Virus record (IMG/VR): IMGVR_UViG_3300049573_000103
Span: 1-43,612 of that record
Direction: 5' to 3' (one strand)
From: a virus
DNA: 43,612 nt
Shown: positions 8,067-23,318 of the stretch, piece by piece
Layout of the letters: the number at the start of each line of letters is the position of its first letter
Position numbering within the stretch: position 1 is the stretch's first letter
The notes under the pieces: generated by a model
What the model saw: only the letters and a program-made list of their open reading frames with translations
Databases searched by the model: none
Told to the model about the DNA's origin: nothing
Position numbers and translations under genes: made by a program

Positions 8067-8359
8067 GCGGCTGCCCATATGCGTGGAATGGAAACGCGCC
8101 GGGCAAAGGCGCCAGTGGGCAGCCGAACATCCAGCGTGCGCCGCGGTGCACGCGCCGCCGCAGGAAAAATGTCCTCGATGTCGATATTGGGGAGCAGCTT
8201 GGTGATCGCGATCGCGCGCCGCGGCGACGGATGGTTGCGGTTGCATTCCCAGTCCGAAACGGCCTGCTTGGTCACGCCCAGCAGATCGGCAAGCGCCTGT
8301 TGCGTGAGGTTGGCGGCTTCCCGCGCATCGCGCAGGGCGGCGTTGGGCAAGGATTTCAT
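8063..8359 (-). CDS. XRE-family HTH protein (second copy of a tandem pair)
   Basis: MKSLPNAALRDAREAANLTQQALADLLGVTKQAVSDWECNRNHPSPRRAIAITKLLPNIDIEDIF. There are ATGA overlaps on both sides. Confidence 0.8.
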   Translation of the reverse strand: MKSLPNAALRDAREAANLTQQALADLLGVTKQAVSDWECNRNHPSPRRAIAITKLLPNIDIEDIFPAAARAPRRTLDVRLPTGAFARRVSIPRIWAAA

Positions 8360-8580
8360 GCGGCCGCCCTGCCCGACTCGGTCGGATAGATATGCTCGAT
8401 CTTGAGTCCCGGCAGCAGGCGGATCAGCGCCAGCGCCTTGCGCGGCGCCGGTTCGTCCGTGCCTGTCTCCCACCGCGACACCGCTCCCTTGCTGACGCCA
8501 AGGGCATCGGCGACGTTCTGCTGCGTGAGGCTTTTGCGCAGGCGCGCCTCTTTGATCGGATTGGGTTTCGCTGTGCTCAT
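8356..8580 (-). CDS. Cro-like XRE-family HTH protein (first gene of the minus-strand early operon)
   Basis: MSTAKPNPIKEARLRKSLTQQNVADALGVSKGAVSRWETGTDEPAPRKALALIRLLPGLKIEHIY. It is divergent from the CI-like gene and paralogous to 8063..8359. Confidence 0.8.
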   Translation of the reverse strand: MSTAKPNPIKEARLRKSLTQQNVADALGVSKGAVSRWETGTDEPAPRKALALIRLLPGLKIEHIYPTESGRAAA

Positions 8581-8659
8581 AGCTGAAGTTTCGGACAGCG
8601 CAACCCATTTGTCAAGTACAGCGCAACCACAAAGTTGCGCGCCTCTATACGCTTGCCGC
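8581..8659. promoter_or_regulatory. Divergent immunity switch region with operator-like repeats
   Basis: Palindrome GCGCAAC-N6-GTTGCGC at 8621-8640. The 11-bp direct repeat ACAGCGCAACC occurs at 8595-8605 and 8618-8628. On the minus strand there is a TTGACA at 8615-8610, and 17 nt further a GAAACT ending 6 nt before the cro-like ATG. Confidence 0.55.
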
Positions 8660-9010
8660 ATGAACACATTCGGCGGGCGGCTGCGAGCCGCTAGACATAA
8701 CGCCAACCTGACTCAGGAGCGCTTGGGGGAGCGCGTAGGGGTGAGCAAAGGCGCCATCTCCCGATGGGAGAGCGATCAGGACCAACCGCAGTTCGCGGTG
8801 CTGGAGCCACTTCGGTGCGCGCTGCGGGTTTCGCTTGACGAGCTGGTTTGTGGTTACATGCAAGGCACGGCTGGCGGCGTGGCGGACCCCTACGCCAAAC
8901 GCGACCCACCCAACACCGCTGAGTGGGCGCTGCTCATCCATCTTCGCCGCGAACCACCGTCAAAGCTTGGCGCGTTGCTGGAGTTTCTCGGGGTCCAGGT
9001 CGAATACTGA
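8660..9010 (+). CDS. CI-like repressor (XRE HTH; no S24 peptidase domain)
   Basis: MNTFGGRLRAARHNANLTQERLGERVGVSKGAISRWESDQDQP... is 116 aa and divergent from the cro-like gene. Confidence 0.8.
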   Translation: MNTFGGRLRAARHNANLTQERLGERVGVSKGAISRWESDQDQPQFAVLEPLRCALRVSLDELVCGYMQGTAGGVADPYAKRDPPNTAEWALLIHLRREPPSKLGALLEFLGVQVEY

Positions 9011-9027
9011 AAAATCAGGAGACAGGG

Positions 9028-9594
9028 ATGAGAATTCCGTTGGTGATGCTGTTGGTTTCGATCAGCACTATCGCGATGGCCGCACCGCCCGCGTCTGTGC
9101 AGGATCTGGCCGGCGCGCTGGCTGCGCCTCGCGATGCATGCGCGCAACAGGCACAGCGCGCGGCATCGGATGCGAGCACGGCCAATTACAAGGCGGGTCT
9201 GGATCTTCAGAACGCCCAGCTGCAGGCCGAGCTGGATGCTCGCGTTTACAGTGTGGGACATGGTCGCAGGGAAACGCGCGACTTCCTGCTGGAGCGGACA
9301 CGGCAGACCAATGCCGATTCGATCGCAACGACCCAACGCATCGCCGACAAGCTGCATGCCGATAGCCAGGCCGTGCTCGCCTGCGTAGCGGACGCCAAGG
9401 CGCAGGGGAAAACCCTGTACTCGACGTTCAAGGCCGACAAGCGCCACCACCGCGACATGCCTGAGGCCGAGGCGCTGATGACAGCATGGCTGACCAACGT
9501 GGCGGAAATCAGCACCAATCAGCCGCAGGGCAGCGACGAGTCGCTGGCGGGGTGGAAGAAGGCGAAGACGCACACGGAAGTGGCTGGTTTGTGA
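9028..9594 (+). CDS. Secreted protein (signal peptide); moron downstream of the repressor
   Basis: ATG 9028 follows AGGAGA. MRIPLVMLLVSISTIAMA|AP is signal-peptide-like. Local GC is lower than in the flanks. Confidence 0.75.
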   Translation: MRIPLVMLLVSISTIAMAAPPASVQDLAGALAAPRDACAQQAQRAASDASTANYKAGLDLQNAQLQAELDARVYSVGHGRRETRDFLLERTRQTNADSIATTQRIADKLHADSQAVLACVADAKAQGKTLYSTFKADKRHHRDMPEAEALMTAWLTNVAEISTNQPQGSDESLAGWKKAKTHTEVAGL

Positions 9595-9665
9595 TGCGGT
9601 ATCGTGCTTTCGACGCCAAGCGCCAGGCGGCGTTGTTGGAATTGATGAAGCCGTAGGAGAAAGCG

Positions 9666-10082
9666 ATGAAGGGAACTATCTTGATCATGGCATCGGCGCT
9701 GGTTCTTGCCGGGTGCGCGGCAGCACCATCTGCCGACAAGATTGCGGCGGCTGACTACGGTTCACCGATCAGCACGGCTGAGGCGGCGCAGCTAGCCACC
9801 GACTACATGAAACGCACGGCGAAAGACCCATATTCATTGATGGTGGAATGTGGCGATGTCACAAAAGGGTGGACGCAAAACAAGATTTCTGCGCGCAGTT
9901 TCTTCGCCGGTTATCTAATCGACTGCAGCGTCAACGGGAAAAATAGTTTCGGTGCCTACGTCGGTGCGAGGAACTATCGTTTCTCGATCCACAACGGGCA
10001 AATCGTCAGCGTGCTCGAACAGATGGATAACGGCTCTTTCGGTCCGCCAAGCATTGTCGACGCGTTGCGGAACGCACGGTAA
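9666..10082 (+). CDS. Lipoprotein; moron
   Basis: MKGTILIMASALVLAGC carries a lipobox. The gene is preceded by AGGAGA and is lower in GC. It converges on the spanin gene with a 5-nt gap. Confidence 0.8.
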   Translation: MKGTILIMASALVLAGCAAAPSADKIAAADYGSPISTAEAAQLATDYMKRTAKDPYSLMVECGDVTKGWTQNKISARSFFAGYLIDCSVNGKNSFGAYVGARNYRFSIHNGQIVSVLEQMDNGSFGPPSIVDALRNAR

Positions 10083-10087
10083 TAGCG

Positions 10088-10399
10088 TCACCGCTCCGCC
10101 TTCGCGCACTCCGCCGTCACCGGCACTTTCGCCGCCGTCTGCCACCACCACACCAGGCACTCCATGCGCACGGCGCAGCGGGTATAGGCAGAGCGCCAGG
10201 CCGCCCCGTTCTCCACGATGTCACGCACCTGCGCGGTGCGGCGCACGGTAGCCGCCGTGCACAACTGCATCAGCGACACCGGCGGCGTGAGCAGCTCAAT
10301 CTTTGTGCGGGTGGTGACCTGGGGCGCAGGGGCGACCGTCGAGCACGCAGCCAACATCATCAGGCACGGCAAGATCCAGTAGCGATTTGGCTGCAGCAT
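10088..10399 (-). CDS. o-spanin (Rz1-like outer-membrane lipoprotein), overlapped architecture
   Basis: ATG 10399 is preceded by GGAGAGGA. MLQPNRYWILPCLMMLAAC carries a lipobox and is followed by a Pro-rich stretch. The gene starts inside the i-spanin gene in another frame and ends beyond it. Confidence 0.7.
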   Translation of the reverse strand: MLQPNRYWILPCLMMLAACSTVAPAPQVTTRTKIELLTPPVSLMQLCTAATVRRTAQVRDIVENGAAWRSAYTRCAVRMECLVWWWQTAAKVPVTAECAKAER

Positions 10400-11808: not shown

Positions 11809-11982
11809 TCAGCGGCCCTTGCTGCTGGCCGCGATCGCCGCACGCACCGCATCCTGCCAGCGCTGCGACGCATCCGTGCGCGCCTCCAGGGCCGTCACGC
11901 GCGCCTGCAGCGCGCGCACCGCGCGGCGGGCGGCCACCGCCACTACCGCCAGCACACCCAGCACCACCAGCGCGCCGATCAT
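11809..11982 (-). CDS. Small TM protein (57 aa) upstream of the endolysin; possible second holin, antiholin or lysis regulator
   Basis: This ORF is not in the track (under 60 aa). Manual translation from ATG 11982, which forms an ATGA overlap with the upstream stop, gives MIGALVVLGVLAVVAVAARRAVRALQARVTALEARTDASQRWQDAVRAAIAASSKGR. Confidence 0.45.
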   Translation of the reverse strand: MIGALVVLGVLAVVAVAARRAVRALQARVTALEARTDASQRWQDAVRAAIAASSKGR

Positions 11983-12287
11983 GGCAGCGGATCCCGCGAC
12001 AGCACGATGCGCTCGCGGGCGAGCTGCGCGACGTAGCCGGCGGCGACCGGCGAGACGGTGCCGGAGAACGACTGCAGCAGAGTGCCGGCACTGTCGTGCG
12101 AGTACACCCGGTGCAGGTTATCCAGCAGGCCGGCGCTGTTGAGGCGCACCGCCTGCGTGAACAATTGGTCGGCCAGCGCGGCGTCGTCCAATGCCTGCAC
12201 GTCCACGCCGACGATGAAACTGGTCAGCATCGCCAGGTCGTCGGGGTTCACGTTGGCGAGGAAGGTGGGGTAGTCGATGATGGTCAT
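11979..12287 (-). CDS. Hypothetical protein downstream of the tail fibre genes
   Basis: ATG 12287 is preceded by TAAGGAGA. MTIIDYPTFLANVNPDDLAMLTSFIVGVDVQ... Confidence 0.7.
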   Translation of the reverse strand: MTIIDYPTFLANVNPDDLAMLTSFIVGVDVQALDDAALADQLFTQAVRLNSAGLLDNLHRVYSHDSAGTLLQSFSGTVSPVAAGYVAQLARERIVLSRDPLP

Positions 12288-12297
12288 GGCGGTCTCC

Positions 12298-12810
12298 TTA
12301 CAATCCGAGGTCGGCGAGTTTTGCGGCGGTGTCGATCTGCATCTCCAGCGCGTCGGCAAAGCTCTGCGCGGCTTGCGTCAGGCATCCCTGCGCATAAATC
12401 CACGCCTTGCCTGCCGTGGTGTCGAAGTAGCCGGCGCCGTAGGCCGGCATGCCAGTGGGGTCGCCACTGCCGCTGGACCAGCCATCGGGCAAATGGCCCG
12501 CGTCGATCGTGGTGCCGGCATCGGGCACGTAACGCACCCAGGCGTCGTACAACGCATGCGTGCCGGCGAGCACGCCGGAGAGCTGCACGCTGCGCTGGCC
12601 ATCCTGCGTGGCAATGGGTGCTGCCGTGGCCGGGTCGAGCACGGGCAGGCCCTGGGCGTCGATGGCGTAGGCCCAACCGGCCACCACCAGGTTATGGCTG
12701 TCGTTGCTCACCGTGGCCAGCGGCACGCGCGCAAAGCCGTGGGCCGTGGTGAAGTCGAAAACCGGCTTGCCGGCGGGGCGGTTGGGGATGGTGTCGATGA
12801 TCGTGCTCAT
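12298..12810 (-). CDS. Hypothetical protein immediately downstream of the tail fibre (possibly a fibre accessory or assembly protein)
   Basis: This is the real part of ORF 12298..13230, from ATG 12810 (MSTIIDTIPNRPAGKPVFDFTTAHGF...). The functional hint comes from position only. Confidence 0.65.
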   Translation of the reverse strand: MSTIIDTIPNRPAGKPVFDFTTAHGFARVPLATVSNDSHNLVVAGWAYAIDAQGLPVLDPATAAPIATQDGQRSVQLSGVLAGTHALYDAWVRYVPDAGTTIDAGHLPDGWSSGSGDPTGMPAYGAGYFDTTAGKAWIYAQGCLTQAAQSFADALEMQIDTAAKLADLGL

Positions 12811-12812
12811 GG

Positions 12813-15800
12813 CTATTTCTTGATCCCGTTGTGAGAGGAAATCCGCTGGTGCGCCTTGGCGCCGGCGAAGAACGAATGCCCGCCGACACTGATGCGCACC
12901 ACCTCGCGCAAGCCGATCGGCTGCACGGGTTGCGCAATGAACCAGCCATCGTCGGTGAGGATGGTGCCGCCGGTCATGTCCGGCGCCATCGCGCTCATGC
13001 CGTCGCGCAAGGTGAACGGCGTGGTGACACTGCAATCGAGCGTCGCGCCAGATGGTGCCGTGATCCGCACGGCGGGGGCTACGATGATGCGGGGCCGATA
13101 GCGCACGAATCGACGCTTGCCATCGCTGCACAGCAGGCGGGGGCGGAATACCCAGTGCCACCAACGCCATCCGCGAGCGAGGTCGCCGGCCGTCAGGCCA
13201 TCGCGCAGCAGCATGTCTGCGCATACGCAACCGTCGATCAGGCCGCCGCCGCCACTGCTGCCGCTGCTCGGGATCGTCACCTGGCCGCCGAGCACCGCGT
13301 CGTCGTAGCCCAGCGCGAGCAGCGCCTGACCTGAGCCTTCCACCGCGAACCAGGTCTTGCTGCCGCCGGCGCCACCGGGGTCTCGGCAGTAGATCTGATA
13401 AGTATGCCCTTGCGTGAGTCCGGTCACCGCCGAGGTCACCGCGCTATAGCTCACCGTGGCGCCGCCCATGCTCACGTTGAACGCATTCACGTCGACGGCG
13501 CCGGTGCTGTAGGCGGTCAGCGCGGTGGTGTTGCGTGCGGCGCCGTAGTTGAGGGTCAGGGAGTTGGGGGCGTTGAGCTGGTTGCCGAGCACCGCGCCAC
13601 TGCTGGCCACCCCGAGCTTGTGCAAGCCGCCGGATAGTTCGATGCCCTTGATGCGCGCGTAGGTACCGCCGTCGGAGATGTTGTCGACGTTCTTGCCAGC
13701 GTGGCCGCCGGCCGTGTTGTCACCGAAATCCGCATAGGCCTTCACGCCGCCGTTGGGTACCGTGGCGAGGTTTCCAAACTGCGTCGCGTTGTCCTGGTAG
13801 GGCGTGGCAACGCTACCCAGCTCAAGCTTGATGTTGCGCCAGCCAATGACGCTGCTTGAGGACATGGTTCCAGAGAAGCGCACCACCAATTGGATGCTAG
13901 CCGTGCCAGCCGCGGTCGTTGCGGTGGCGGTATACCGCTTCATCGGCTGGCCATTCGTGGCCACGATGATGGGGCGATTTCCGGAGTCGATCTCGGTGCC
14001 GGACGAGTTCATGAAGCGAAGCTGCACAATCATCGTGCCCGTTGCGACCATGCGCGGATCCATGTCCGCGGAGATAGTCACCGGCACGCTGCTCGCGGCC
14101 TGAGGAATCGTTGTCGTAAAACCCTGGTCGACGCTGCCCGTGCCCGGATTTACGCATGCGAACATGGGGCCGGCGTTGCCGAACAGTTCGGTGCGCGTGG
14201 CCATCTGCTGCTGGGATCCACCTACCCAGCTGAACCCTGGCAGGCCGCTGAAGCCGAGAGCGCCCGTGGGGTTCGGCATCAGATTTTGGCCGGGTTGCGC
14301 GATGCCCGTTTGTGCGGTTGGGTTATAGATCGCGCCGAACTTGGTGGTGCCATCCGGCACTTCGTCGAGGCTGCTGGGGTACTGCGTGCACGCCACGTTG
14401 TCCACGTAATACGTGCCCGCCGTGTGGCCGTTGGTGACAAGGATCGTGCGCGCGTAGACCGTGCCTGCCGGCGCAGCGCCGACTGCAAAGGAGCCGGCTG
14501 TCGTCGTCCCGGTGACTTGGTTTCCGGGGGTGGTCGTGATTTCGCCGCCCGACGCATTGCACCAGCTCACAGCGATGTAGCACGAGCCGTTCGCGCCGAC
14601 CGCCTTGACCAGCGCCTGCGTCTTGTAGACCTGACCCGGATTGCATGCGGCGAGCCCGCCGTTGCGGTACACCCGCACGCCACCAGACCCAGCAGGATGC
14701 AGCGCCGAATTCGGGCCGATGCCCGGCGTGTTGCCTGCCGTGTCGATCGTCCAGCCACTGCCGCTGTCCGCCGTCCAGCCATAGCCCGTGGGCGCGATGT
14801 CGAAACCGCCGTTGATGACGGGTAGCTGCGACACCTGACCCGTCGCGGTGTTGGCCGTCGCCTGTGCCGCATCAGCCTTCGATTTCGCGGCGGCGTAGAT
14901 CGCGTTCAACAAGGCCTGCCGCGTGGTGTACACGTCGGAGAACTTCGACCGGAACGTAGTACCAGTGATCGTCGTGTTGCCTGCCTGACTGTTCCATGCG
15001 GTCGGTGCGGTGAGCGTGCCGAGATAGGCCGTGAGCGCCGAGACGGCGTTGTCGTAGGCGGTTTTTTCGGTGGTGATCGCGTAGGTCGTCGCCTGCGCGT
15101 CGATGCCGGCCTGCTCGCTTGTGATGACCGCGTAGTCTTGAATCACTGCAGACTTCTCGCCGCCGGCACTCAGCACGTTGTCGCTGGCGATACTGGCGAG
15201 CGCGCTGTTCGCGGTGTTGGCCGCCGTCTGCGCGTTGTTGGCTGCCGTCTGCGCCATAGCGGCGTTGGTGACTGCCGTGTTGGCCGTGCTTTGCGCTGCA
15301 TCAGCCTTCGACTTGGCGGCGGCGTAGATAGCGTTAAGCAGCGCGGTCTTGGCTGTGTAGACCGTCGTCCAGTTGCTGTCCCATGTGGCGCGCGTGATCG
15401 CCGTGGTGCCGGTGATGCCGGTCCACACGAACGACGCATCCAGCACGCCGACCGTCGTCTTGAGGTAGTTCTTCAGCGCCGTGATGGCGCCGTCGTAATT
15501 GGTTTTCTCGGTGGTGATCCCGTAGCTGGTGGCCTGGGCGTCGATGCCGGATTGCTCGGCGGTGAGCGTGTTGTAGCGCTGCTTCGACTGGACCTTCTCA
15601 TCGGCCGTCAGCTTGCCGTCGCTGGCGATGTCCGTCAGCTGATTGAGCGCAGTAGCGGCATCGGCGCTGGCCGCATTGGCTTCGGCCTGGGCCGCCGCCG
15701 CCGCGGCTTCGATCGAGAACGCGGTGGCCGTCGACCCCTGCTCAAACTTCACGCGGCGCCATGCGAGCGTCGTCCATATGGCGCCAGTGGCCACCACGCG

Positions 15801-16436
15801 CACCCGTGCGGTTACGGCACCAGCGGCAGGCGTATCGGTCACCGTGGGGCGATGCCATGCACCGTCGGCAGCGAAAACTCCGTTGGAGCCATCGGTAACG
15901 GTCCCGCCGCTGCTGTTGAAATACAGCACGTCGATGTAATACGTGCCGGTTGCCGCCGCATCGGCTAGCACATCGGCCGATGCGGTATAGGGTTTGCCTG
16001 CCGTCACCGGGATCAGGTCGGTGTAGAAGGTATTGGTGCCGCTCGCGCCAGGCGCAGCAGCCCGCAGCTGGTAGCCATCCGTCGCAGACAACGAACTGAT
16101 CGCCGTCGAACCGGACCAGCCTGCGGTGCCGTTCTCGCCGGAGGTGTTGGGCACCATGTTCGCAGCGGGATAGAGGGCGGAAGCGGCGGCGGCCGATAGG
16201 TCACTCAGCGTGATGTTGCCCGGAGCCACGTCGGGCACCACCGCGGTGTGCAGTACCCAGTCCGATTTCGCGCCGCAGGCGGAAACGTCGCGGATCTGCA
16301 CGTCGTAGGTCTTGTCGCGGTCGAGGCCTTCCAGCCGCAGTTCGGCCACCGGCGAGCAGGTGGCGATATCGCTCCACGCCGTGGTGCCGGTGACGCGCCA
16401 GCGCACCTCGCGCAGGATGGCGGACGAGGCGGCCAT
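12813..16436 (-). CDS. Tail fibre / host-recognition protein (1207 aa). It has an FN3-like N-terminus, three CBM-like jelly-roll modules, a tandem 146-aa-period duplication and a C-terminal Hint-like domain.
   Basis: This is the longest minus-strand ORF after the tape measure and the J-like protein, and it lies directly after the J-like gene. The repeats and the C-terminal C...HN pattern were read in the translation. Confidence 0.85.
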   Translation of the reverse strand: MAASSAILREVRWRVTGTTAWSDIATCSPVAELRLEGLDRDKTYDVQIRDVSACGAKSDWVLHTAVVPDVAPGNITLSDLSAAAASALYPAANMVPNTSGENGTAGWSGSTAISSLSATDGYQLRAAAPGASGTNTFYTDLIPVTAGKPYTASADVLADAAATGTYYIDVLYFNSSGGTVTDGSNGVFAADGAWHRPTVTDTPAAGAVTARVRVVATGAIWTTLAWRRVKFEQGSTATAFSIEAAAAAAQAEANAASADAATALNQLTDIASDGKLTADEKVQSKQRYNTLTAEQSGIDAQATSYGITTEKTNYDGAITALKNYLKTTVGVLDASFVWTGITGTTAITRATWDSNWTTVYTAKTALLNAIYAAAKSKADAAQSTANTAVTNAAMAQTAANNAQTAANTANSALASIASDNVLSAGGEKSAVIQDYAVITSEQAGIDAQATTYAITTEKTAYDNAVSALTAYLGTLTAPTAWNSQAGNTTITGTTFRSKFSDVYTTRQALLNAIYAAAKSKADAAQATANTATGQVSQLPVINGGFDIAPTGYGWTADSGSGWTIDTAGNTPGIGPNSALHPAGSGGVRVYRNGGLAACNPGQVYKTQALVKAVGANGSCYIAVSWCNASGGEITTTPGNQVTGTTTAGSFAVGAAPAGTVYARTILVTNGHTAGTYYVDNVACTQYPSSLDEVPDGTTKFGAIYNPTAQTGIAQPGQNLMPNPTGALGFSGLPGFSWVGGSQQQMATRTELFGNAGPMFACVNPGTGSVDQGFTTTIPQAASSVPVTISADMDPRMVATGTMIVQLRFMNSSGTEIDSGNRPIIVATNGQPMKRYTATATTAAGTASIQLVVRFSGTMSSSSVIGWRNIKLELGSVATPYQDNATQFGNLATVPNGGVKAYADFGDNTAGGHAGKNVDNISDGGTYARIKGIELSGGLHKLGVASSGAVLGNQLNAPNSLTLNYGAARNTTALTAYSTGAVDVNAFNVSMGGATVSYSAVTSAVTGLTQGHTYQIYCRDPGGAGGSKTWFAVEGSGQALLALGYDDAVLGGQVTIPSSGSSGGGGLIDGCVCADMLLRDGLTAGDLARGWRWWHWVFRPRLLCSDGKRRFVRYRPRIIVAPAVRITAPSGATLDCSVTTPFTLRDGMSAMAPDMTGGTILTDDGWFIAQPVQPIGLREVVRISVGGHSFFAGAKAHQRISSHNGIKK

Positions 16437-18919
16437 CAGCGCGCCACCAGGTTGGGGGTGTGACGGATGTTGCCGCTGCCGCCACTGCCGCCGCTATAGA
16501 TCGGCAGCCGGTGCACGCCGGGCTTGGGCGTGCCCGATACGCCGGTCACCGCGTGGATCACGCCGGCGTCGTCCGGGCCGCTGTCGCTGATGCGGATGGT
16601 GACATCCGGCGGCGGCGGCGCGCTGCACCAGGGCGTGCCGGTGATGGCGCTGACAAAGGTCGGCGGCGTGCCGGTGCCGGCGGCGGGCACGTCGGGCGCT
16701 TCATCCACCGCCGTGATCCGCGCCGACAGATCCTGCAGCGGCTCGATGCGCTGCACGATCAGCCGCTGGGTCACCAGCGTGCGCTCGCCCACCACGGCCA
16801 GGTCGCCTACCTGCACGCCGGCGGGCAGCGCGCTGGCAAAGGCGAACGTGGCCACGTCGCCGCTGCCCGTGGTGCTGGTGTTGGCCACCGCCTGCACGCC
16901 GTCGTCGCTGCGGATCTGCACGGCGTAGAGCGTGCTCGCCTTCAGTACCACGGCGCCGTCCAGCGTGATGCTCTTGCGATCGCCGGCCATGCTCTTGATC
17001 CGCCCGGAGCCGGCGCCCCACTCCACCACGTCGTTGGCCGCGGTCACCAGCTGCCCGCGCTGGCACACCAGGTGCTCCATGTCGGCGGTGAAGGTGTAGG
17101 TGTTCACGCGCTGCTCGCTGGCTTTCAGGTGGTAGGTGCCGATGCGCCACACCGCCACCGGGTCGGTACACATGCGCAGGTCCATCACCTCGTAGCGGGT
17201 GGCCTGGGTGGTGCCGCCGGCGCCATCGGCGCTGTAGCCGTCGGCGTAGACGATCAGCTCGTCCTGCTGGTTGTTGGCCTGCGGGTTGATGAACTGGCAG
17301 CGCAGCGCGTGCGGCGGGTCGAAGAACACGCGCTGGCCGCTGAAGTCCCAACTGTTGCGCGGGGTGAACATCTGCACCGGCGTGGTCTGCGCCACGTCGC
17401 GCACGCAGCCATATTTGCCGTTGGGCATGCCGAAGGTGGCGCGGCCGCTGGCCAGCACGTCGCGCAGCAGCTCCAGCTGGGTGCGGCCGGACTCCTCCAT
17501 GGCGTTGTACACGTAGCCCATGGCCTCGCAGTCGGCGGCCCAGTCGACAATCTCGTCGATGGCCATGCGCGACTCCGGCACCAGGCGCGCCACCAGCTGC
17601 GGTGGCGCGGCGGTGAGCAGCCAGTGGTACACCCATGCGTTGTTGCTGGTGGCCACGCCGGTGGTCCACGTGTCGGTATCCGGGTCGTAGGTGCGGATCA
17701 GCTGCGAGGCCAGCACGCTGATGGTGCTGACCACGCTGTTGAGCTGGTCGGTGGCACGAATGCGCAGGGCCAGCTTGGTGGTGCCGGTGGTGCTGGGCAG
17801 CGCACTGCTCACGCTGCGCAGCACCGTCCAGGTCAGGTCGGCATAGGTCTGGACGGTGGTGCCGTCCCACGTGGTGCTGTTGCGCCCCACGATGACCTCG
17901 TATTGCCCCACCGTGGGCAGCTTCCAGCGCAGGCCCACGCGCACGATTTTTCGCACCGCGCTGCTGAGCGTGAAGGTGGTGCCGTTGGTGGTCAGTTCCC
18001 CGGCGGACATGGACAGGCCGCTGGCGCCGGCCACGTTGAGCCACGTGCTCGACCCCACCTCGCGATACTGGATAGTGAGCTGGATGTGGCCGGCCACGTC
18101 GCGGCCCTTGTTGTCCACGCCGAACAGGCCGCTGGGGCACTGCAGGTCCAGCGACATTTCGCTGCTGTTGGCCTGCCCTGCCCGCGTGGCGGTGTCGGCG
18201 GCGTCGTTGAGGTTCACCGCCACCGCCAGCTCGAAGATGTCGTTGGTGTACAGCGTGGGGGTCTTGGTCACCTCCCATTGCACATCGTCGTAGTCCTCGA
18301 TCGCGGTCTCGCCGATTTTGATGCCCGACACCGACAGGTCGCCCGGCCCCAGGTCCAGCAGCATGCGCAGGTATTGGTCGCTGCCCACGATCTCGGTGTA
18401 CGGGAGTGCCGCATGGGTGGGGAAAAACCGCACCGTGCCGATCACGCAGGGGACCGGGCTGTAGACCGTGGCGCGGTTCTGCGTGCCGGTGAGCGAGTTG
18501 AGCGTGTCGAACGGGTCGCCGGCGCCGGGCAGCTTGGGCATCGGCGGTGGCACCAGCAGGTTCACTGCCGTGAAGCCGTAGGCGAGGATCTGCAGGGCGC
18601 CCTGGTAGTCCTGCGTGTAGTACGCATAGACGATGGCGACGATCACCACCACGATCTTGAGCAGCTTGTTGTTGTTGCCGCCACCCATCGGCACCGCGGT
18701 CACCACCAGCCGCTGGCCCGCCTTGGGCTTCACCTTGGCCCACAGCGTGCGCGGCACCAGCTCGCCGCCAAGCTCCACGCGCAAGCTTTGCGCCGCGCCA
18801 GGCCCCAGCAGCTCGGCAATGGTCTGCCCGGCGGGCGCCTCGGCGTATACCGTGTCGGCCAGTGGGTGCGCGCGGCCGGCCACCGTCACCATGCCCCGGG
18901 TGATGGCGCGCTCAGTCAT
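16436..18919 (-). CDS. Host specificity / tip attachment protein (lambda J-like) with a gpI-like N-terminal region
   Basis: 827 aa from ATG 18919. The hydrophobic segment LLKIVVVIVAIVYAYY near the N-terminus is as in lambda gpI-type proteins. The gene follows the NlpC/P60 tail protein. Confidence 0.8.
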   Translation of the reverse strand: MTERAITRGMVTVAGRAHPLADTVYAEAPAGQTIAELLGPGAAQSLRVELGGELVPRTLWAKVKPKAGQRLVVTAVPMGGGNNNKLLKIVVVIVAIVYAYYTQDYQGALQILAYGFTAVNLLVPPPMPKLPGAGDPFDTLNSLTGTQNRATVYSPVPCVIGTVRFFPTHAALPYTEIVGSDQYLRMLLDLGPGDLSVSGIKIGETAIEDYDDVQWEVTKTPTLYTNDIFELAVAVNLNDAADTATRAGQANSSEMSLDLQCPSGLFGVDNKGRDVAGHIQLTIQYREVGSSTWLNVAGASGLSMSAGELTTNGTTFTLSSAVRKIVRVGLRWKLPTVGQYEVIVGRNSTTWDGTTVQTYADLTWTVLRSVSSALPSTTGTTKLALRIRATDQLNSVVSTISVLASQLIRTYDPDTDTWTTGVATSNNAWVYHWLLTAAPPQLVARLVPESRMAIDEIVDWAADCEAMGYVYNAMEESGRTQLELLRDVLASGRATFGMPNGKYGCVRDVAQTTPVQMFTPRNSWDFSGQRVFFDPPHALRCQFINPQANNQQDELIVYADGYSADGAGGTTQATRYEVMDLRMCTDPVAVWRIGTYHLKASEQRVNTYTFTADMEHLVCQRGQLVTAANDVVEWGAGSGRIKSMAGDRKSITLDGAVVLKASTLYAVQIRSDDGVQAVANTSTTGSGDVATFAFASALPAGVQVGDLAVVGERTLVTQRLIVQRIEPLQDLSARITAVDEAPDVPAAGTGTPPTFVSAITGTPWCSAPPPPDVTIRISDSGPDDAGVIHAVTGVSGTPKPGVHRLPIYSGGSGGSGNIRHTPNLVAR

Positions 18920-19316
18920 GGCGGTAGATGCCCTCGATGCGGCACGCCCAGCGCGGGCTGTCCAACCGGTCGACCACCGTGCTGTCGCCCGGTGAGGCAT
19001 GCAGAAAGTGCACGGCATCCAGCATCAGGGCGCAGTGCCATGGGCGCTGGGCGATCGCCAGCACCAGCAGGTCGCCGGCACGCGCCCGCTCCACGCGGCG
19101 CCAGCCGTCCAGCAGCCCGGCGCGCACGGCGTCACCGATGGCTGCCCAGTCGTCGCCGTCGCGGTAGCTGTCGTCGTAGCCCGGCAGCTTCACGTGAAAC
19201 ACTTCGGCGAGCATCAGACGCACGATGCCCCAGCAGTCGATACCGGCGCGGTCGCGCCCCTTGTCGAGGTACGGAATGCCCACGTAGGGCGCGGCGAAGG
19301 CGGGGATCATGCCCAT
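18912..19316 (-). CDS. NlpC/P60-family tail protein (lambda gpK position)
   Basis: GIDCWGIVRLMLAEVF carries the catalytic Cys motif, and there is a downstream His (WHCALML...HFLHASPG). It is 134 aa. Confidence 0.8.
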   Translation of the reverse strand: MGMIPAFAAPYVGIPYLDKGRDRAGIDCWGIVRLMLAEVFHVKLPGYDDSYRDGDDWAAIGDAVRAGLLDGWRRVERARAGDLLVLAIAQRPWHCALMLDAVHFLHASPGDSTVVDRLDSPRWACRIEGIYRHD

Positions 19317-19792
19317 CAGAGAAAGAGCCCCGGCGAGTTGGTCGGGGTGTATGTCATGGCGGGCACTTGCTGATTCAGGATGTCGTCCTCGTACCCCAGC
19401 GTGCCGGTGATCGCCAGCACGTCGTAGGTGGCGGACTTCAACGCGAAGTCGAACGGGCCGGCCTCCACCGTGTTGGGGCTGCTGGCCATGATCACCTCCA
19501 TGGTCACCTGCGGCACGCCGGACAGCAGCCGGATCTGGCGCAGCACCTCGCGGTCGACGTTGTCGATCACGATATCCACCTGCGGCAGCTGGTCGTCGCG
19601 CTGCGCCGGCAGGCTCAGCTGCATGGGGTACGGCTGGTAGGTGCCCGCCGTGCGCGCCACGGGCTGGGTGTTGTTGACCAGGCGCAGGGTGGTGATGTCC
19701 TGGTGGGTGATGGTCAGGCACACCAGGAACACCTCGCCGGTCTCCTGCGCAAACATCGCGCGCATGGCGTTGATGCTGACCTGCGGGGTCAC
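19316..19792 (-). CDS. Minor tail protein (DUF1833-like; lambda gpL position)
   Basis: GTG start with a GTGA overlap. MFAQETGEVFLVCLTITH matches my recollection of DUF1833 proteins. Confidence 0.7.
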   Translation of the reverse strand: MTPQVSINAMRAMFAQETGEVFLVCLTITHQDITTLRLVNNTQPVARTAGTYQPYPMQLSLPAQRDDQLPQVDIVIDNVDREVLRQIRLLSGVPQVTMEVIMASSPNTVEAGPFDFALKSATYDVLAITGTLGYEDDILNQQVPAMTYTPTNSPGLFL

Positions 19793-20148
19793 GGCAGTTT
19801 CTCCAGTTGCAGCGTCACCAGCCAGCGGTTGATCGAGCCTTTCTGGAAGCTGCCCGCCGGGCGCTGGATGAACCGGTAGGTGGCGGTGGCGTTGGTGCGG
19901 AAGTCGGTCCAGTCAAACGGCAGCACGTCGGCCAGCGTGGTCTCGTAGAACGTGATCAGCGTGGCGTACTGCGTCTGCGTGAGCTTGAGCGAGCAGTTGA
20001 ACGGCGTTGCCACAGCGGTGAAGCGCCGCCGCACCTTGGCCACGCCGGCGTCCTGGTTGCTGCGGATCGCATTGCTCACCCCCTGGTAACTGGTAGTGTT
20101 GTCCGCCAGCGGCGCCGGCAGCGTGCTCGGCCACAATGGATTCGCCAT
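19789..20148 (-). CDS. Minor tail protein (lambda gpM position)
   Basis: 119-aa ORF directly after the tape measure gene. The call rests on position. Confidence 0.6.
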   Translation of the reverse strand: MANPLWPSTLPAPLADNTTSYQGVSNAIRSNQDAGVAKVRRRFTAVATPFNCSLKLTQTQYATLITFYETTLADVLPFDWTDFRTNATATYRFIQRPAGSFQKGSINRWLVTLQLEKLP

Positions 20149-20151
20149 GGC

Positions 20152-23100
20152 TCAGCCTCCCGCCGCGGCGTAGCTGCGGGCCGGACGGCGCGTGCCGGTG
20201 GCGGCATGGATCGCCTGGCCCAGCCGGCCACCACGCGCCACGTCCTGCGCCGCCGCGTTGATGAAGATGTCGAGGTACTTGCGCCCATCCGCGCCGTCGC
20301 GCTGTTCGGTGCGCGCGCCGTTGTCGGCGCCGTAGATGTTCACCACCACGCCACCGGCATCCGTACCGCCCGCCGCGCCGCTGCTGCCACCGATCGGGCC
20401 GCCATCGGCGTAGCGCGGCAGGCGTTTGGCGCGCACGTCGTCCATGAACCGCTCGCCGTAGTAGTTCACGGCATCGGCGGTCTGCATGTATTCGCCGTTG
20501 CTGGCACGGATCAGCACGCTGTCGCTGGTGCCCGTGCCGGGGCCACGGATGGGGCCGCCCTCGGCATGGCCGCCGTTGCCGGCGGTGGCGAGGTTGAAGC
20601 CGCCGGTACCCGTCACCGAGTTGTAGCCGCCGCCGAAGTAGCCGAAGCTGCTGCTGTTGGCGGCGGTGCCGGCAGCGGGCGAAATGAGGTTGATCAGGCC
20701 GGTGATGGCCTGGGCAATCAGCGCCTTTGCCACCATGTGCGCCAGCATGTTCTCGAAATCCTTTTCGAAGCTCTTGAACGTGAGCTTGCCGCCGGCAAGC
20801 CAGTCGGCGGCGGCGTCCTCGGCATCGCTGTAGAGCGTGGTGATGCCGCGCTGGGCCTGCCCGGCCTTGTCTTTCGCTTGCGCGGCATAGTCCTGCCATG
20901 CCGCGCGTGCGCCGTTGACCCAGTCGGCCTGGGCATCGTCCATGCGGCGGTAGCCGTCGCGGATGATCTCCACTTTCCGGTCGGTGGCGTTCTGCAACGC
21001 CTGCACGTCGGCCTCGTAGGCCTCCTGCGACAGGCCGCCCTTCTGCCCCGCGGCACCGGCCTGCCGCTGCAGCGCCAGCTTCTGCAGCTGCTCGGCCTCG
21101 TCGCGGTAGGCCTTGGTGATCTGCTGGGTGCGCTGGTACTCCTGCGCGCCCATGCCGATGCGTGCGACCTGGTTGTCGATCGAGTCCTGCAGCGCCGCGT
21201 TGGTGCGATCCAGCGCGTCGGCATACTCCTTCTGCCCCGCCAGCTCGCGCTTGCGGTTGTCGTCCAGCGTGCGCTGCAGTGCCTGCTGGCCGCGGTTGAA
21301 CAGCTCGGCAGCCTTGGTGGCGTCGCCGCCCTTCTGCAGGTACACATCCATCTGCGCCGCAAGCTGGGCAATGCCCTGCTCATACTGCGTCAGCGCACCG
21401 GTGTCGGCCTGGATGCTCTTGCGGTCCAGCGCGTCGACCTGGCTGCTGAACGTGTTGTAGGCGGCCGGCTCCTTGCTCTTGGGGCCTTGGGGGCCGGCCA
21501 GCTTTTTCAGCGACGCTTGATAGGTGTTGTTGGCCGCTTTCACCTGGTTGTCGAACTGCGCCTCGATCAGCGCGCGCTGCTGCGGATCCACCACGCCGTA
21601 GAGCGCGGAGGCGCGGTCCATGCGCAGCTTGTCCAGCGTGTTCTTCAGCACCACGTCGGCCGGGGTGCCGGCGGACAGGCGCCGCTGCGCCGCGATGGCC
21701 TCGGCGTTCAGGGCCGCATCGTTCGACGTTTGCTGCGACGCGAACTGGTCGGTGATGCCCTGCAGCTGCAGGGCCGCCAGTTGCTTGCGCAGCGCCGCCA
21801 GCTGCTCACCACCCTGCGCCTGCACCAGGTTGCCGGCGCGGTCGAGGTGCGGGGTGGTGAGCTTGTCGATCGCGGCCTGCACCTCCTTGATCTGGTCGGT
21901 GATGCTCTGCGTGCGGCCCAGGCCTTTCATGGAATCCCACGCACCGTTCCACGCCTCGGCCACGGCGTGGCCGGCGCGGATCATCCAGCCGGCGTTGTCC
22001 TGCACGTCCTGCGCGCGCTCCTTCATCGCCGCCGCGTCGAGCTGGTTGGCGATGCGCGACGCCTCGCGCGTGTTGCCCTCGGCTTCCAGCGCGGCGATCT
22101 GCGCGTATTGCGCGGCGGTCAGGAAGTGGTACTGCTCGTTGAGCTTGGCGATCGCCTCGGAGGGCTTGTCGCCGATCTCGATGATCTTGGCCACCGACTT
22201 GTCGATGCTCTCGCCGGTGACGGTGGACATATCCACCGCCTGCTGCGCGAGCACGTCCAGGCTGGTGCCGAAGCTCTTGCCCGACCCTACCAGCTGCTCG
22301 ATGGCCTTGCGCGCGTCGCTGTACTTGCCGGTGGCCGCACCCACCGCCTCGGCCATGTCGTTGATCTGCCCGACCGTGGCGCCGGCGGCGCCGCCAGTGG
22401 CGATCAGCGATACGCGCAGTTGCTCGGTTTCAAAGTAGCCCTTGGCGGCGGCCACGGCAAAGCTGCCCAGCACCGCCACCGCACCACCGATGAGCAACCC
22501 CGCGGCGCTGAACGCCAGGCCCATCACGCCGGTGTTGGCGCCCAACGTGAGCACGCTCTGGCTCAGCCGGCCAAACTGCCCGGTGGCCAGATCCTTGGTG
22601 ATGTAGCCCAGCTCGCGGCGCGCGTTGGCGTTGTTGACGCTGAACCCGTGCATGGCGTTGCCGGCGGCGGCAATGCGGTCGCGGCTTTGGTCGATCGCCG
22701 CGCTGAACATCTTGTAGTCGTCGGCGCCGAGCACGCCCTTGGCGCGGAATGCGTCCAGTTTGGCCTGCTGCGCATCAAGCTTTTCCAGCGCGGCGATGGT
22801 GGGGTCGATCTGGCCCAGCAGGCGGCCCAGCTCGGCGCGCTGTTTCTCCAGCCCGGCGGTGTTGGCGGCGGCGGCCGCCGCCTGCTGTTCGGCGCGCACC
22901 AGGTCGGTGGCGCCGTGCATGGCGCGGGTCTGCGCCGCCACCACGCGCTCGTAGCCGGCTGCGGCGCCGGCATTGGTGGCGGTGCTGCGCTGGGTGGCGG
23001 CAATGGAGCTGAGCTCGGCCTGCTGGCGTTCCAGCGAGGCACGCACCATCGCCTTGATGCGTGCGGCGGCTTCGTCGTTCGATTCGCCCAGCGCGGCGGT

Positions 23101-23271: not shown

Positions 23272-23318
23272 AAGGGGCTCGGTGAATTAGTGAACGATTC
23301 CAGCTGCTTTCAGTACAG

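What the first reader, a model, noticed from the sequence alone, without database searches (positions are those of the whole stretch)
12813..13229. The tail fibre ends in a Hint / bacterial-intein-like domain, predicting autoproteolytic maturation rather than a classical chaperone domain
The last 138 aa follow a Gly/Ser linker (SSGSSGGGG LIDG). They begin with Cys (CVCADMLLRDGLTAGDLARG...) and end ...LREVVRISVGGHSFFAGAKAHQRISSHN-GIKK. That pattern matches intein/Hint block A (nucleophilic Cys followed by a hydrophobic stretch and G..DL) and blocks F/G (V.I.V..H.F.A.G....HN with a terminal His-Asn).

Only four residues follow HN, and the +1 residue is Gly, so protein splicing is not possible. 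Self-cleavage at the N-terminal Cys and/or Asn cyclisation is the expected chemistry. Codons in this segment are visibly less GC3-biased (GTA, CGT, TAT, TCT, ATT) than in the rest of the genome, suggesting a horizontally acquired module.

Self-cleaving intramolecular chaperones in phage fibres are usually S74 peptidase domains. A Hint domain in that position would be unusual.
Basis: partly seen in the sequence, partly recalled or inferred. Interest (0 to 1): 0.65.

Follow-up and report, generated by a model that had tools for sequence, protein, structure and literature searches.

The report
Self-cleaving Hint cap on phage fibre
The last 138 residues of this phage's distal tail fibre form an intein-like (Hint) domain from a large family that no domain library tested here recognises, found at the ends of phage fibres, which probably cuts itself off as the fibre matures.

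Summary
The 1207-aa ORF at 12813-16436 (-) ends in a Gly/Ser linker, then Cys1070 ... His1202-Asn1203, then GIKK.

No Pfam, NCBIfam or PHROG model matches it. The fold evidence is nonetheless clear:
- AlphaFold2 gives pLDDT 93.
- The 50 listed Foldseek PDB hits are all inteins, BIL or Hedgehog domains.
- A family profile finds the gp41-1 intein (E 5e-5).
- hhalign against mini-inteins gives 94% probability.

The module is common. 383 clusters at 50% identity carry it, almost always at the extreme C-terminus of J-like or fibre proteins. Cys1, His and Asn are invariant in 113/113 domains.

It departs from canonical Hint domains in four ways:
- The block-B His is replaced by Thr/Ala.
- The block-F Asp is replaced by a basic residue.
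- There is no +1 nucleophile.
- Every short tail carries a Lys.

Related phages encode Hint-less homologues that stop just after the poly-Gly, which resembles the predicted cleaved product.

The codon-bias argument fails: GC3 is 0.819 here against 0.823 in the rest of the gene.

Self-removal is inferred, not shown. I rate this a new variant of a known kind, of moderate to high interest.

The parts
12813..16436 (-). Distal tail-fibre gene (1207 aa plus stop). It follows the J-like gene with an ATGA start/stop overlap.
   Evidence: ORF list. The same gene call appears on the source metagenome contig, after DUF1833, NlpC/P60 and FNIII-A_GpJ genes. PHROG tail and host-range families match residues 210-537.
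12828..13229 (-). Hint-fold domain, residues Cys1070 to Asn1203.
   Evidence: AF2 pLDDT 93.3, pTM 0.88. All 50 Foldseek PDB hits listed (of 301 with E<=10) are inteins, BIL or Hedgehog Hint domains, with TM 0.44-0.73 normalised to the query and best E 6e-6. Profile against PDB sequences finds the gp41-1 intein at E 5e-5. hhalign gives 93.9% probability.
13227..13229 (-). [quoted passage not shown]
   Evidence: Invariant in 113/113 family domains and always preceded by a poly-Gly stretch.
13017..13031 (-). Block-B equivalent, S1136-V-T-T1139-P1140. Ser takes the Thr/Ser position and Thr1139 takes the His position.
   Evidence: Three independent alignments put T1139 on the block-B His: gp41-1 and PhoCDC21-1 and hhalign. 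In the family, S is 109/113, T 111/113 and P 112/113. The position is Ala in divergent members.
12828..12833 (-). His1202-Asn1203, the block-G penultimate His and terminal Asn (predicted succinimide-forming residue).
   Evidence: Both invariant in 113/113. They align to the intein terminal HN.
12816..12827 (-). C-terminal tail G1204-I-K-K1207. The +1 residue is Gly, and a Lys lies at or next to the C-terminus.
   Evidence: Family tails are 3-7 aa. 109/109 contain Lys and 74 end in K-P. The +1 residue is A/P/V/T/L and others, never Cys. Members with extensions or tandem copies keep HN-x-x-K.
13230..13268 (-). Gly/Ser linker S1057-G1069 (SSGSSGGGGLIDG), which carries the predicted scissile bond Gly1069-Cys1070.
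   Evidence: Read directly from the sequence. Positions -2 to -7 are mostly Gly across the family. pLDDT is about 40 in the model, so the linker is predicted disordered.
13269..13619 (-). 'Pre-Hint' beta-rich domain, residues ~940-1056, ending in VTIP. It is the likely mature tip of the fibre.
   Evidence: Homologous region lies directly upstream of the poly-Gly-Hint in 45 of 150 representatives. The AF2 core has pLDDT 82-94. It also occurs without a Hint in P0155, P0157 and P0159. No significant fold match was found.
16182..16436 (-). N-terminal adaptor, residues 1-85. It is shared with other fibre genes that follow J.
   Evidence: 54% identity to the N-terminus of P0155, which sits in the same position after J. 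Matches also occur in L006 and L008.
16436..19018 (-). Upstream gene: the proximal part of the central tail fibre J.
   Evidence: phrog_31 'central tail fiber J', E 4e-81. FNIII-A_GpJ is on record for it. In L009 the J part and a Hint-ended fibre are fused in one 1726-codon reading frame.
12298..12810 (-). Downstream 170-aa gene of unknown function, starting 2 nt after the fibre stop.
   Evidence: No family match. It is conserved after the fibre in the Frateuria prophage L006 (56% identity) and in L005. It is absent after the Hint-ended fibres in L008 and L009, so it is not tied to the Hint module.

Best explanation
The C-terminal 138 residues are a catalytically competent Hint (Hedgehog/intein) domain of a distinct family that none of the domain libraries tested here recognises. 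The family is appended to the distal end of phage central-fibre and fibre proteins through a flexible poly-Gly linker.

Proposed mechanism:
1. After the fibre folds, Cys1070 attacks the Gly1069 carbonyl (N-S acyl shift) and forms a thioester.
2. The thioester is resolved by water or by an amine. This frees the fibre, which then ends in its poly-Gly tail behind the ~120-aa 'pre-Hint' tip domain.
3. His1202-assisted cyclisation of Asn1203 cuts the bond to the short Lys-containing tail.

The net result is removal of a ~15-kDa cap. This is functionally analogous to the self-cleaving S74 intramolecular chaperone of other fibres, but uses thioester/succinimide chemistry rather than a Ser-Lys protease.

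Shown: the fold, homology to inteins, family-wide invariance of Cys1/His/Asn, the terminal position, and the existence of Hint-less homologues that end at the poly-Gly.

Inferred: that cleavage happens, its order and timing, and that it serves fibre maturation.
For: Fold and homology:
- AF2 model, pLDDT 93.3.
- All 50 listed Foldseek PDB hits are inteins, BIL or Hedgehog Hint domains, for example gp41-1 6qaz (TM 0.73/0.81), C. thermocellum BIL 2lwy and Hedgehog 1at0.
- In BFVD, the hits ranked after the homologous fibre ends that carry a name are mostly phage inteins or intein-bearing proteins.
- The HMM profile hits the gp41-1 intein at E 5e-5. hhalign gives 93.9% probability, E 1.6e-7.

Selection on catalytic residues:
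- Cys1070, His1202 and Asn1203 are invariant in 113/113 domains that share only 33-55% identity with the query.

Position and architecture:
- Of the ~150 domain matches that reach the module's C-terminal end, 146 leave at most 14 residues after it; 4 have longer extensions.
- A disordered poly-Gly linker lies before the Cys.
- Two members carry tandem copies, each with its own Cys...HN. This fits self-removing units better than a binding tip.
- The host proteins are J-like fibres, with Phage-tail_3, FNIII-A_GpJ and Rcc01698_C domains.
- The same module ends fibre-like proteins of Stenotrophomonas phage DLP6 and Xanthomonas phages LucasX, XacN1 and PhiXhv.

Hint-less homologues:
- P0155, P0157 and P0159 have the pre-Hint domain and stop a few residues after the poly-Gly.
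- P0155 sits in the syntenic slot right after J.
- They resemble the predicted cleaved product.
Against: - There are no experimental data for any member. No paper on this module was found.
- The block-B His is absent (Thr1139, or Ala in some members). This residue normally drives the N-S acyl shift and is the most conserved residue in inteins (PMC6333167).
- The block-F Asp is replaced by Arg/His/Lys. N-terminal cleavage could therefore be slow, conditional or absent.
- No curated Hint HMM recognises the domain.
- Invariance of Asn, when only 3-7 residues follow it, is not explained by simple cap removal.
- I could not inspect model coordinates, so the active-site geometry is unverified.
Confidence: 0.6

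Rival explanations
1. Lysine-directed branch splicing. The thioester at Cys1070 is attacked not by water but by the epsilon-amine of the conserved tail Lys (K1206 or K1207), or by the alpha-amine of the tail once Asn cyclisation has released it. The Hint domain is excised and the fibre C-terminus ends up capped by the short tail peptide through an isopeptide or peptide bond.
For: - All 109 short tails contain a Lys. The spacing from Asn varies (1-5 residues) but the Lys sits at or next to the C-terminus.
- The motif HN-x-x-K persists in members with extensions or tandem copies.
- The reading explains why Asn and His are invariant although almost nothing follows them.
- Precedents: Tetrahymena BIL2 forms a Lys(epsilon-NH2)-C-terminus isopeptide (PMC8616854). 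BIL domains without a +1 nucleophile are reported to splice (title of Dassa et al. 2004, as listed in PMC7765530).
Against: - This is purely an inference from conservation.
- The tail has low model confidence (pLDDT ~56) and no coordinates were available to check that the Lys can reach the thioester.
- The Lys could equally serve folding, Asn cyclisation or protection of the C-terminus.
- No biological benefit of a 4-residue cap is evident.
Confidence: 0.15
2. A retained tip domain. The Hint fold has been co-opted as a stable, uncleaved distal domain (receptor binding or structural), and the Cys/His/Asn are kept for structural reasons.
For: - It occupies the very tip of a J-like fibre, where receptor-binding domains usually sit.
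- The block-B His and block-F Asp, which are important for catalysis in canonical inteins, are missing.
Against: - 100% conservation of exactly the three chemistry residues across 113 divergent domains, while the rest averages ~39% column identity.
- A disordered poly-Gly tether rather than a rigid junction.
- Tandem copies exist.
- Hint-less homologues, one of them (P0155) in the same genomic slot.
- Receptor-binding tips are normally hypervariable, not motif-conserved.
Confidence: 0.1
3. A thioester warhead. The Hint domain stays on the assembled fibre and delivers the fibre C-terminus as an activated thioester to an external nucleophile. The target could be another virion protein (cross-linking) or a host surface amine or hydroxyl (covalent, irreversible adsorption), by analogy with Hedgehog cholesteroylation.
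For: - Hint chemistry produces a transferable acyl-thioester (Hedgehog and BUBL precedents; PMC7765530; PMC8616854).
- The domain is located at the distal tip.
- The long flexible poly-Gly arm recalls the ubiquitin-like C-termini used by BIL2.
Against: - There is no adduct-recognition region comparable to the Hedgehog sterol-recognition region. Only 4 residues follow the Hint.
- Thioesters are hydrolytically labile over a virion's lifetime.
- Nothing in the data points to an acceptor.
Confidence: 0.08
4. A decayed intein: a remnant of a once-splicing mini-intein whose C-extein was lost, now neutral baggage.
For: The closest solved structures are mini-inteins, several of phage or cyanophage-like origin.
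Against: - 383 clusters share the same terminal architecture, the poly-Gly linker and the Lys tail.
- Purifying selection acts on Cys/His/Asn.
- There is no homing endonuclease and no conserved insertion site in a conserved host protein.
- Host proteins are variable fibres, as is typical of BIL domains (PMC7765530).
Confidence: 0.03

Closest known systems
A-type bacterial intein-like (BIL) domains (Amitai et al. 2003; Dassa et al. 2004; example structure C. thermocellum BIL, PDB 2lwy)
   Same: - Hint fold (Foldseek E 1.4e-4, TM 0.68).
- Cys at position 1 and a conserved C-terminal His-Asn.
- No obligatory +1 nucleophile.
- Found in variable, non-conserved surface or secreted proteins rather than in conserved enzymes.
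- Expected N- and C-terminal autocleavage (PMC7765530).
   Different: - No sequence-HMM match to PT-HINT or any other Pfam Hint family.
- Block-B His replaced by Thr/Ala, and block-F Asp by a basic residue.
- Almost always the very last domain, followed only by a 3-7-residue Lys-containing tail.
- The hosts are phage tail-fibre / J proteins.
Mini-inteins (gp41-1, MchDnaB-1 / Msm DnaB class 3, Npu DnaE, Ssp DnaB)
   Same: - Best structural matches (TM up to 0.73/0.81) and best profile matches.
- Same size (~135 aa), with no endonuclease insert.
- Blocks A, B, F and G can be aligned.
   Different: - There is no C-extein and no +1 Cys/Ser/Thr in the window protein. Only 21/113 family members have Ser or Thr there.
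- It is not inserted in a conserved host-protein site.
- It lacks the block-B His.
Tetrahymena BUBL BIL2 domain (PDB 6y75/6tmm)
   Same: - Hint fold.
- The N-extein ends in a flexible Gly-rich C-terminus.
- A lysine amine resolves the thioester to give an isopeptide (PMC8616854). This is a possible model for the conserved tail Lys here.
   Different: - Eukaryotic.
- Flanked by ubiquitin-like domains.
- Retains the block-B His (H69).
- Lys involvement here is only hypothesised.
Peptidase S74 intramolecular chaperone of endosialidases and phage fibres (e.g. K1F, T5 pb1)
   Same: - A C-terminal, self-removing domain on phage fibre or spike proteins.
- The likely biological logic is the same: a cap that is needed during folding or assembly and then discarded.
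   Different: - Unrelated fold and chemistry: a Ser-Lys dyad protease and trimerisation chaperone, against a Cys thioester / Asn succinimide Hint.
- No S74 match in this protein.
- There is no evidence that the Hint domain chaperones trimerisation.
Hedgehog C-terminal autoprocessing (Hog) domain (PDB 1at0)
   Same: - Hint fold.
- A Gly-Cys type scissile junction at the start of a C-terminal domain that removes itself from the functional N-terminal part through a thioester.
   Different: - No sterol-recognition region.
- Has the intein-type terminal His-Asn, which Hog domains lack.
- No match to the Pfam Hint family PF01079.

Membership tests
Hint (Hedgehog/intein) superfamily | Horseshoe-like all-beta Hint fold | tested here: met
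   AF2 pLDDT 93.3. All 50 listed Foldseek PDB hits (of 301 with E<=10) are inteins, BIL or Hedgehog domains; 33 have E<=1e-3. In BFVD, after the homologous fibre ends, the named hits are mostly phage inteins or intein-bearing proteins.
Hint (Hedgehog/intein) superfamily | Nucleophilic Cys/Ser as the first residue of the domain (block A) | tested here: met
   Cys1070; invariant in 113/113.
Hint (Hedgehog/intein) superfamily | Block B Thr-x-x-His | tested here: not met
   Ser1136 occupies the Thr/Ser position, but the His position is Thr1139 (T in 111/113, otherwise Ala) in three independent alignments.
Hint (Hedgehog/intein) superfamily | Detectable sequence homology to known members | tested here: met
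   Family profile against PDB sequences: gp41-1 intein E 5e-5, PhoCDC21-1 E 0.018. hhalign against four mini-inteins: 93.9% probability, E 1.6e-7.
Inteins (protein-splicing elements) | Block G penultimate His and terminal Asn | tested here: met
   His1202-Asn1203; invariant in 113/113; aligned to the intein HN.
Inteins (protein-splicing elements) | +1 Cys/Ser/Thr on a C-extein, and insertion within a conserved host protein | tested here: not met
   The +1 residue is Gly1204 and only 4 residues follow. Across the family, +1 is A/P/V/T/L and others (Ser/Thr in 21/113, Cys in 0), and tails are 3-7 aa.
Inteins (protein-splicing elements) | Block F Asp (F:4) that coordinates the splicing steps | tested here: not met
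   The aligned position is Arg1181. In the family it is R 49, H 29, K 14 of 113.
A-type BIL / Pretoxin-HINT (Pfam PT-HINT) | Match to the curated family model | tested here: not met
   No Pfam family of any Hint type at E<=10 for the window protein or its 162-aa C-terminus. None at E<=1 in 37 members.
A-type BIL / Pretoxin-HINT (Pfam PT-HINT) | Cys1 plus C-terminal His-Asn, no required +1 nucleophile, located in variable non-conserved surface or secreted proteins | tested here: met
   for the residues. The host proteins are mosaic fibre / J proteins. The description of A-type BILs is taken from PMC7765530.
A-type BIL / Pretoxin-HINT (Pfam PT-HINT) | Demonstrated autocleavage at the N and/or C junction | not testable with these tools
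   Needs protein expression and mass spectrometry. No published data on any member were found.
B-type BIL (Pfam Hint_2) | Match to the model; lacks the intein-type C-terminal motif | tested here: not met
   No Hint_2 match. The intein-type HN is present and invariant here, whereas B-type BILs lack that motif (PMC7765530).
Hedgehog Hog domain | Hint module followed by a sterol-recognition region; match to Pfam Hint (PF01079) | tested here: not met
   No Pfam match. Only GIKK follows the Hint module.
Peptidase S74 intramolecular chaperone | Match to the S74 model / Ser-Lys dyad protease fold at the fibre C-terminus | tested here: not met
   No such Pfam or PHROG match. The fold is Hint.

The most novel reading that the evidence does not exclude
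The module is a new mechanistic class of Hint domain that works without the block-B histidine. It uses its universally conserved tail lysine as the acyl acceptor. The phage fibre is thereby matured by 'lysine branch splicing': the Hint is excised and the fibre C-terminus becomes isopeptide-capped. More radically, the tip thioester could be used for covalent attachment to a virion or host partner. Either case would be a post-translational chemistry not yet described for any virus structural protein.
Probability: 0.15. Interest if true: 0.85.

Novelty: new variant of a known kind. Interest (0 to 1): 0.62.

Why it matters
Receptor-binding fibres decide phage host range and are prime engineering targets. 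Knowing that a large class of them (at least 383 sequence clusters, including cultured Xanthomonas and Stenotrophomonas phages) carries a probably self-removing Hint cap changes three things:
- how their mature ends should be predicted;
- how they should be expressed;
- how cryo-EM or mass-spectrometry data should be read.

For intein biochemistry, the family is a natural experiment. It is a deeply conserved Hint domain with Cys1 and His-Asn but without the 'essential' block-B His or the block-F Asp, and with a conserved tail Lys. If active, it is also a compact (134-aa) C-terminal self-cleaving tag candidate.

It also fills an annotation gap, because no Pfam, NCBIfam or PHROG model recognises the domain.

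Tried and rejected
- Pfam, NCBIfam and PHROG scans of the C-terminal 162 aa and of 37 members found no Hint family. I do not read this as refutation, because fold and profile evidence is strong.
- A single-sequence PDB phmmer search gave only noise (gamma-sarcoglycan, E 0.5).
- Word-index protein searches mostly failed: no hit, then one fragment. The exhaustive representative search was needed.
- The search for related loci with the broad alignment or the single sequence found nothing. A subfamily alignment gave only 5 loci.
- The nucleotide search of the neighbouring J and tail genes (window 16436-24000) against known phages matched only short tape-measure-like stretches, about 2% of the query, so no close cultured relative was found.
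- The pre-Hint domain model has pLDDT 71 and no significant fold match (best E 0.79).
- The XacN1 and LucasX papers hold no proteomic information on their Hint-bearing proteins.
- The codon-bias / horizontal-transfer argument for the module is rejected.
- I considered whether the downstream 170-aa gene is a partner of the Hint. It is rejected because it is absent after the Hint-ended fibres in L008 and L009.
- Overlapping plus-strand ORFs at 12831-13334 and elsewhere are taken as spurious high-GC ORFs. The minus frame has homologues and GC3 of 0.82.
Full report
**1. What is in the sequence**

The finding lies at the 3' end of a 1207-codon ORF on the minus strand (12813-16436).
- Residues 1057-1069 read SSGSSGGGGLIDG.
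- Cys1070 (codon 13227-13229) begins the last 138 residues.
- The protein ends ...HQRISSHN-GIKK-stop.

The gene sits in a lambda-like tail-tip module. The source metagenome contig (JGI 3300056388, 43.6 kb) has this order: DUF1833, NlpC/P60, an FNIII-A_GpJ protein, this 1207-aa protein, three small ORFs, then GH108 endolysin, holin, spanin/LysC.

The upstream ORF (16436-19018) matches PHROG 'central tail fiber J' (E 4e-81). It overlaps the fibre start by ATGA. In a related viral contig (L009) the J part and a Hint-ended fibre are one 1726-codon frame. So 'distal part of the central tail fibre' is a fair description.

**2. Is it a Hint domain?**

Curated sequence models say nothing:
- No Pfam, NCBIfam or PHROG family matches the C-terminal 162 aa.
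- None of 37 family members hits any Pfam Hint-type model, even at E<=1.
- A single-sequence search of PDB sequences gives only noise.

Deeper methods agree that it is a Hint domain:
- An exhaustive phmmer search of 1.84 billion cluster representatives returned 383 proteins at E<=1e-3 and 84 at E<=1e-10.
- A 37-sequence profile of these hits finds the gp41-1 intein in PDB sequences (E 5e-5) and PhoCDC21-1 (E 0.018).
- hhalign of a 61-sequence family alignment against four mini-inteins gives 93.9% probability, E 1.6e-7.
- AlphaFold2 on the 61-sequence alignment gives pLDDT 93.3 and pTM 0.88, with an all-beta architecture.
- Foldseek against the PDB returns 33 hits at E<=1e-3, and all 50 listed hits are inteins, BIL domains or Hedgehog autoprocessing domains. 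Examples are MchDnaB-1 (E 6e-6), gp41-1 (TM 0.73/0.81), C. thermocellum BIL 2lwy, Tetrahymena BIL2 6y75 and Hedgehog 1at0.
- Against viral predicted structures, the first hits are homologous fibre ends (LucasX, XacN1, DLP6). Of the hits that follow and carry a name, most are phage inteins or intein-bearing terminase, polymerase and helicase proteins.

**3. Anatomy of the family**

I analysed 113 full-length domains, which share 33-55% identity with the query.

Invariant or near-invariant positions:
- Cys1070, His1202 and Asn1203 are invariant.
- Gly1130, Ser1136, Thr1139, Pro1140, Gly1146, Ala1191 and Gly1192 are above 90%.
- Positions -2 to -7 before the Cys are mostly Gly.

Three independent alignments map S1136-x-x-T1139-P onto the block-B motif (T/S)-x-x-H-P. 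The block-B histidine is therefore replaced by Thr, and by Ala in divergent members. [quoted passage not shown] The block-F Asp aligns with Arg1181, which is R/H/K across the family.

After Asn come only 3-7 residues in 109/113 members:
- The +1 residue is A/P/V/T/L and others. It is Ser or Thr in 21 and never Cys.
- Every one of the 109 short tails contains a Lys at or next to the C-terminus, and 74 end in K-P.
- The cultured-phage homologues end ...HNVADQKM...HNNNQQKM...HNASISYEKM and ...HNAVKQIQ.
- The few members with longer extensions or a second tandem Hint keep HN-x-x-K.

**4. Where the module occurs**

- Of the ~150 domain matches that reach the module's C-terminal end, 146 leave at most 14 residues after it; 4 have longer extensions.
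- Host proteins are 200-3200 aa. Where they are recognisable, they carry Phage-tail_3, FNIII-A_GpJ, Rcc01698_C or PKD domains.
- Cultured carriers include Stenotrophomonas phage DLP6 ('VlrC protein') and Xanthomonas phages LucasX, XacN1, PhiXhv-12/15/16 and RTH11. All are annotated as hypothetical.
- A Frateuria MAG prophage (L006) is a close relative of the window phage: J 64%, the two downstream ORFs 56% and 64%. Its fibre ends in a Hint of a different subfamily.

In 45 of 150 representatives, a ~120-aa domain lies directly before the poly-Gly. It corresponds to window residues ~940-1056 and ends in VTIP-SSG-SSGGGG.
- Its AF2 model has a confident beta core and a disordered linker.
- It has no significant fold match.

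The same domain plus poly-Gly also exists without any Hint. P0155, P0157 and P0159 stop 5-20 residues after the Gly run. P0155 (203 aa) sits in the syntenic slot right after J, with the same overlap. It shares 54% identity with the window fibre's N-terminal adaptor. These natural Hint-less proteins resemble the product expected after N-terminal cleavage.

**5. Mechanism**

Best-supported reading, confidence about 0.6:
- An N-S acyl shift occurs at Gly1069-Cys1070.
- The thioester is resolved and Asn1203 cyclises.
- The ~15-kDa Hint cap is removed, and the fibre ends in its poly-Gly tail.

The arguments are:
- the absolute conservation of exactly the three chemistry residues;
- the flexible linker;
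- the terminal position;
- the tandem self-contained copies;
- the Hint-less homologues.

The weak points are:
- the missing block-B His and block-F Asp;
- the lack of any experiment;
- the unexplained need for an invariant Asn when almost nothing follows it.

The last point and the universal tail Lys suggest a variant, at about 0.15. In it, the Lys epsilon-amine, or the tail alpha-amine after Asn cyclisation, resolves the thioester. Precedents are the Tetrahymena BIL2 isopeptide ligation (PMC8616854) and the reported splicing of BIL domains that lack a +1 nucleophile (reference title in PMC7765530).

Other rivals rank lower, for the reasons given in their entries: a retained non-catalytic tip domain (0.1), a thioester warhead for covalent attachment (0.08) and a decayed intein (0.03).

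**6.

- Codon usage. GC3 is 0.819 in the 138 codons and 0.823 in the other 1069 codons (p = 0.91). The whole fibre gene is lower than J (0.926, p = 2e-11) and lower than the neighbouring genes (0.86-0.89). Any compositional oddity therefore belongs to the whole fibre gene, not to the Hint module.
- 'Splicing not possible'. Canonical class-1 splicing is excluded for this protein, because +1 is Gly. Non-canonical ligation is not excluded.
- 'Unusual'. Seven full-text searches combining Hint/intein terms with phage fibre or tail terms found no description of this module. The module is, however, abundant in metagenomes.

**7. Comparison and verdict**

By fold and remote homology the domain belongs to the Hint superfamily. 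It behaves most like an A-type BIL: Cys1, terminal His-Asn, no +1 nucleophile, variable surface-protein hosts. It fails the sequence-model test for every curated Hint family, and it lacks two canonical catalytic residues. It is functionally analogous, not homologous, to the S74 intramolecular chaperone.

I class it as a new variant of a known kind. It is a distinct, large Hint family specific to phage fibre C-termini, and the domain libraries tested here do not recognise it. Interest is 0.62: the fold is solid, the context is new and testable, and the chemistry is unproven.

Noticed in passing
window 12816-12827 (-); family-wide: Every short tail after the terminal Asn (109/109) contains a Lys at or next to the C-terminus, and 74 end in K-P. 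The spacing from Asn varies between 1 and 5 residues.
   Followed up: partly
window 13269-13619 (-); P0155 in L011 5001-5612: A conserved ~120-aa 'pre-Hint' domain ending in VTIP(S/T)SG(S/T)SGGGG forms a cassette with the Hint in 45 of 150 representatives. It also occurs in short fibre proteins that stop just after the poly-Gly, one of them syntenic after J. Its fold has no significant match in the PDB.
   Followed up: partly
P0009 residues ~1262-1560; P0139 residues ~110-396: Two metagenomic proteins carry two tandem copies of the module (Cys...HN-xxK-linker-Cys...HHN). The second copies belong to a divergent subtype, with Ala at the block-B His position and an HHN ending.
   Followed up: no
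window 16434-16438 (-); L009 1231-6411: The central fibre is split into a J-like gene and the distal fibre gene, joined by an ATGA stop/start overlap. The same split is seen in L006, L008 and L011, whereas L009 encodes both parts in one 1726-codon frame.
   Followed up: partly
window ~14850-15680 (-), fibre residues ~252-530: The fibre has an internal duplication of a ~130-aa Ala-rich, probably helical segment (...IASDGKLTADEK...GIDAQATSYGITTEKTNYDGAITAL... repeated as ...IASDNVLSAGGEK...GIDAQATTYAITTEKTAYDNAVSAL...). Both copies align to the same stretch of L008 and L009.
   Followed up: no
window ~15690-16164 (-), fibre residues 91-249: There are sub-threshold matches to the CBM_4_9 carbohydrate-binding domain (24.3 bits against a cut-off of 25.9) and to the NCBIfam 'GTA head spike fiber' domain (26.3 against 36). 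These hint at a glycan-binding domain near the N-terminus of the fibre.
   Followed up: no
window 11979-12810 (-): Two small genes (170 aa and 126 aa) lie between the fibre and the lysis cassette and match no family. Both are conserved in the Frateuria prophage L006. They could be fibre accessory or assembly proteins.
   Followed up: partly
window 8000-10100: There is a low-GC island (0.60-0.64, against ~0.69 elsewhere) just past the lysis genes. It holds a plus-strand ORF with a lipoprotein-like signal (9666-10082, MKGTILIMASALVLAGC...) and an ORF with an XRE-type helix-turn-helix-like stretch (8402-9010). It may be a moron or regulatory region.
   Followed up: no
window 12813-16436 compared with 16436-19018: The whole fibre gene has markedly lower GC3 (0.82) than the adjacent J gene (0.93; p = 2e-11). 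This is consistent with the distal fibre gene, not the Hint module alone, having a separate evolutionary history.
   Followed up: partly
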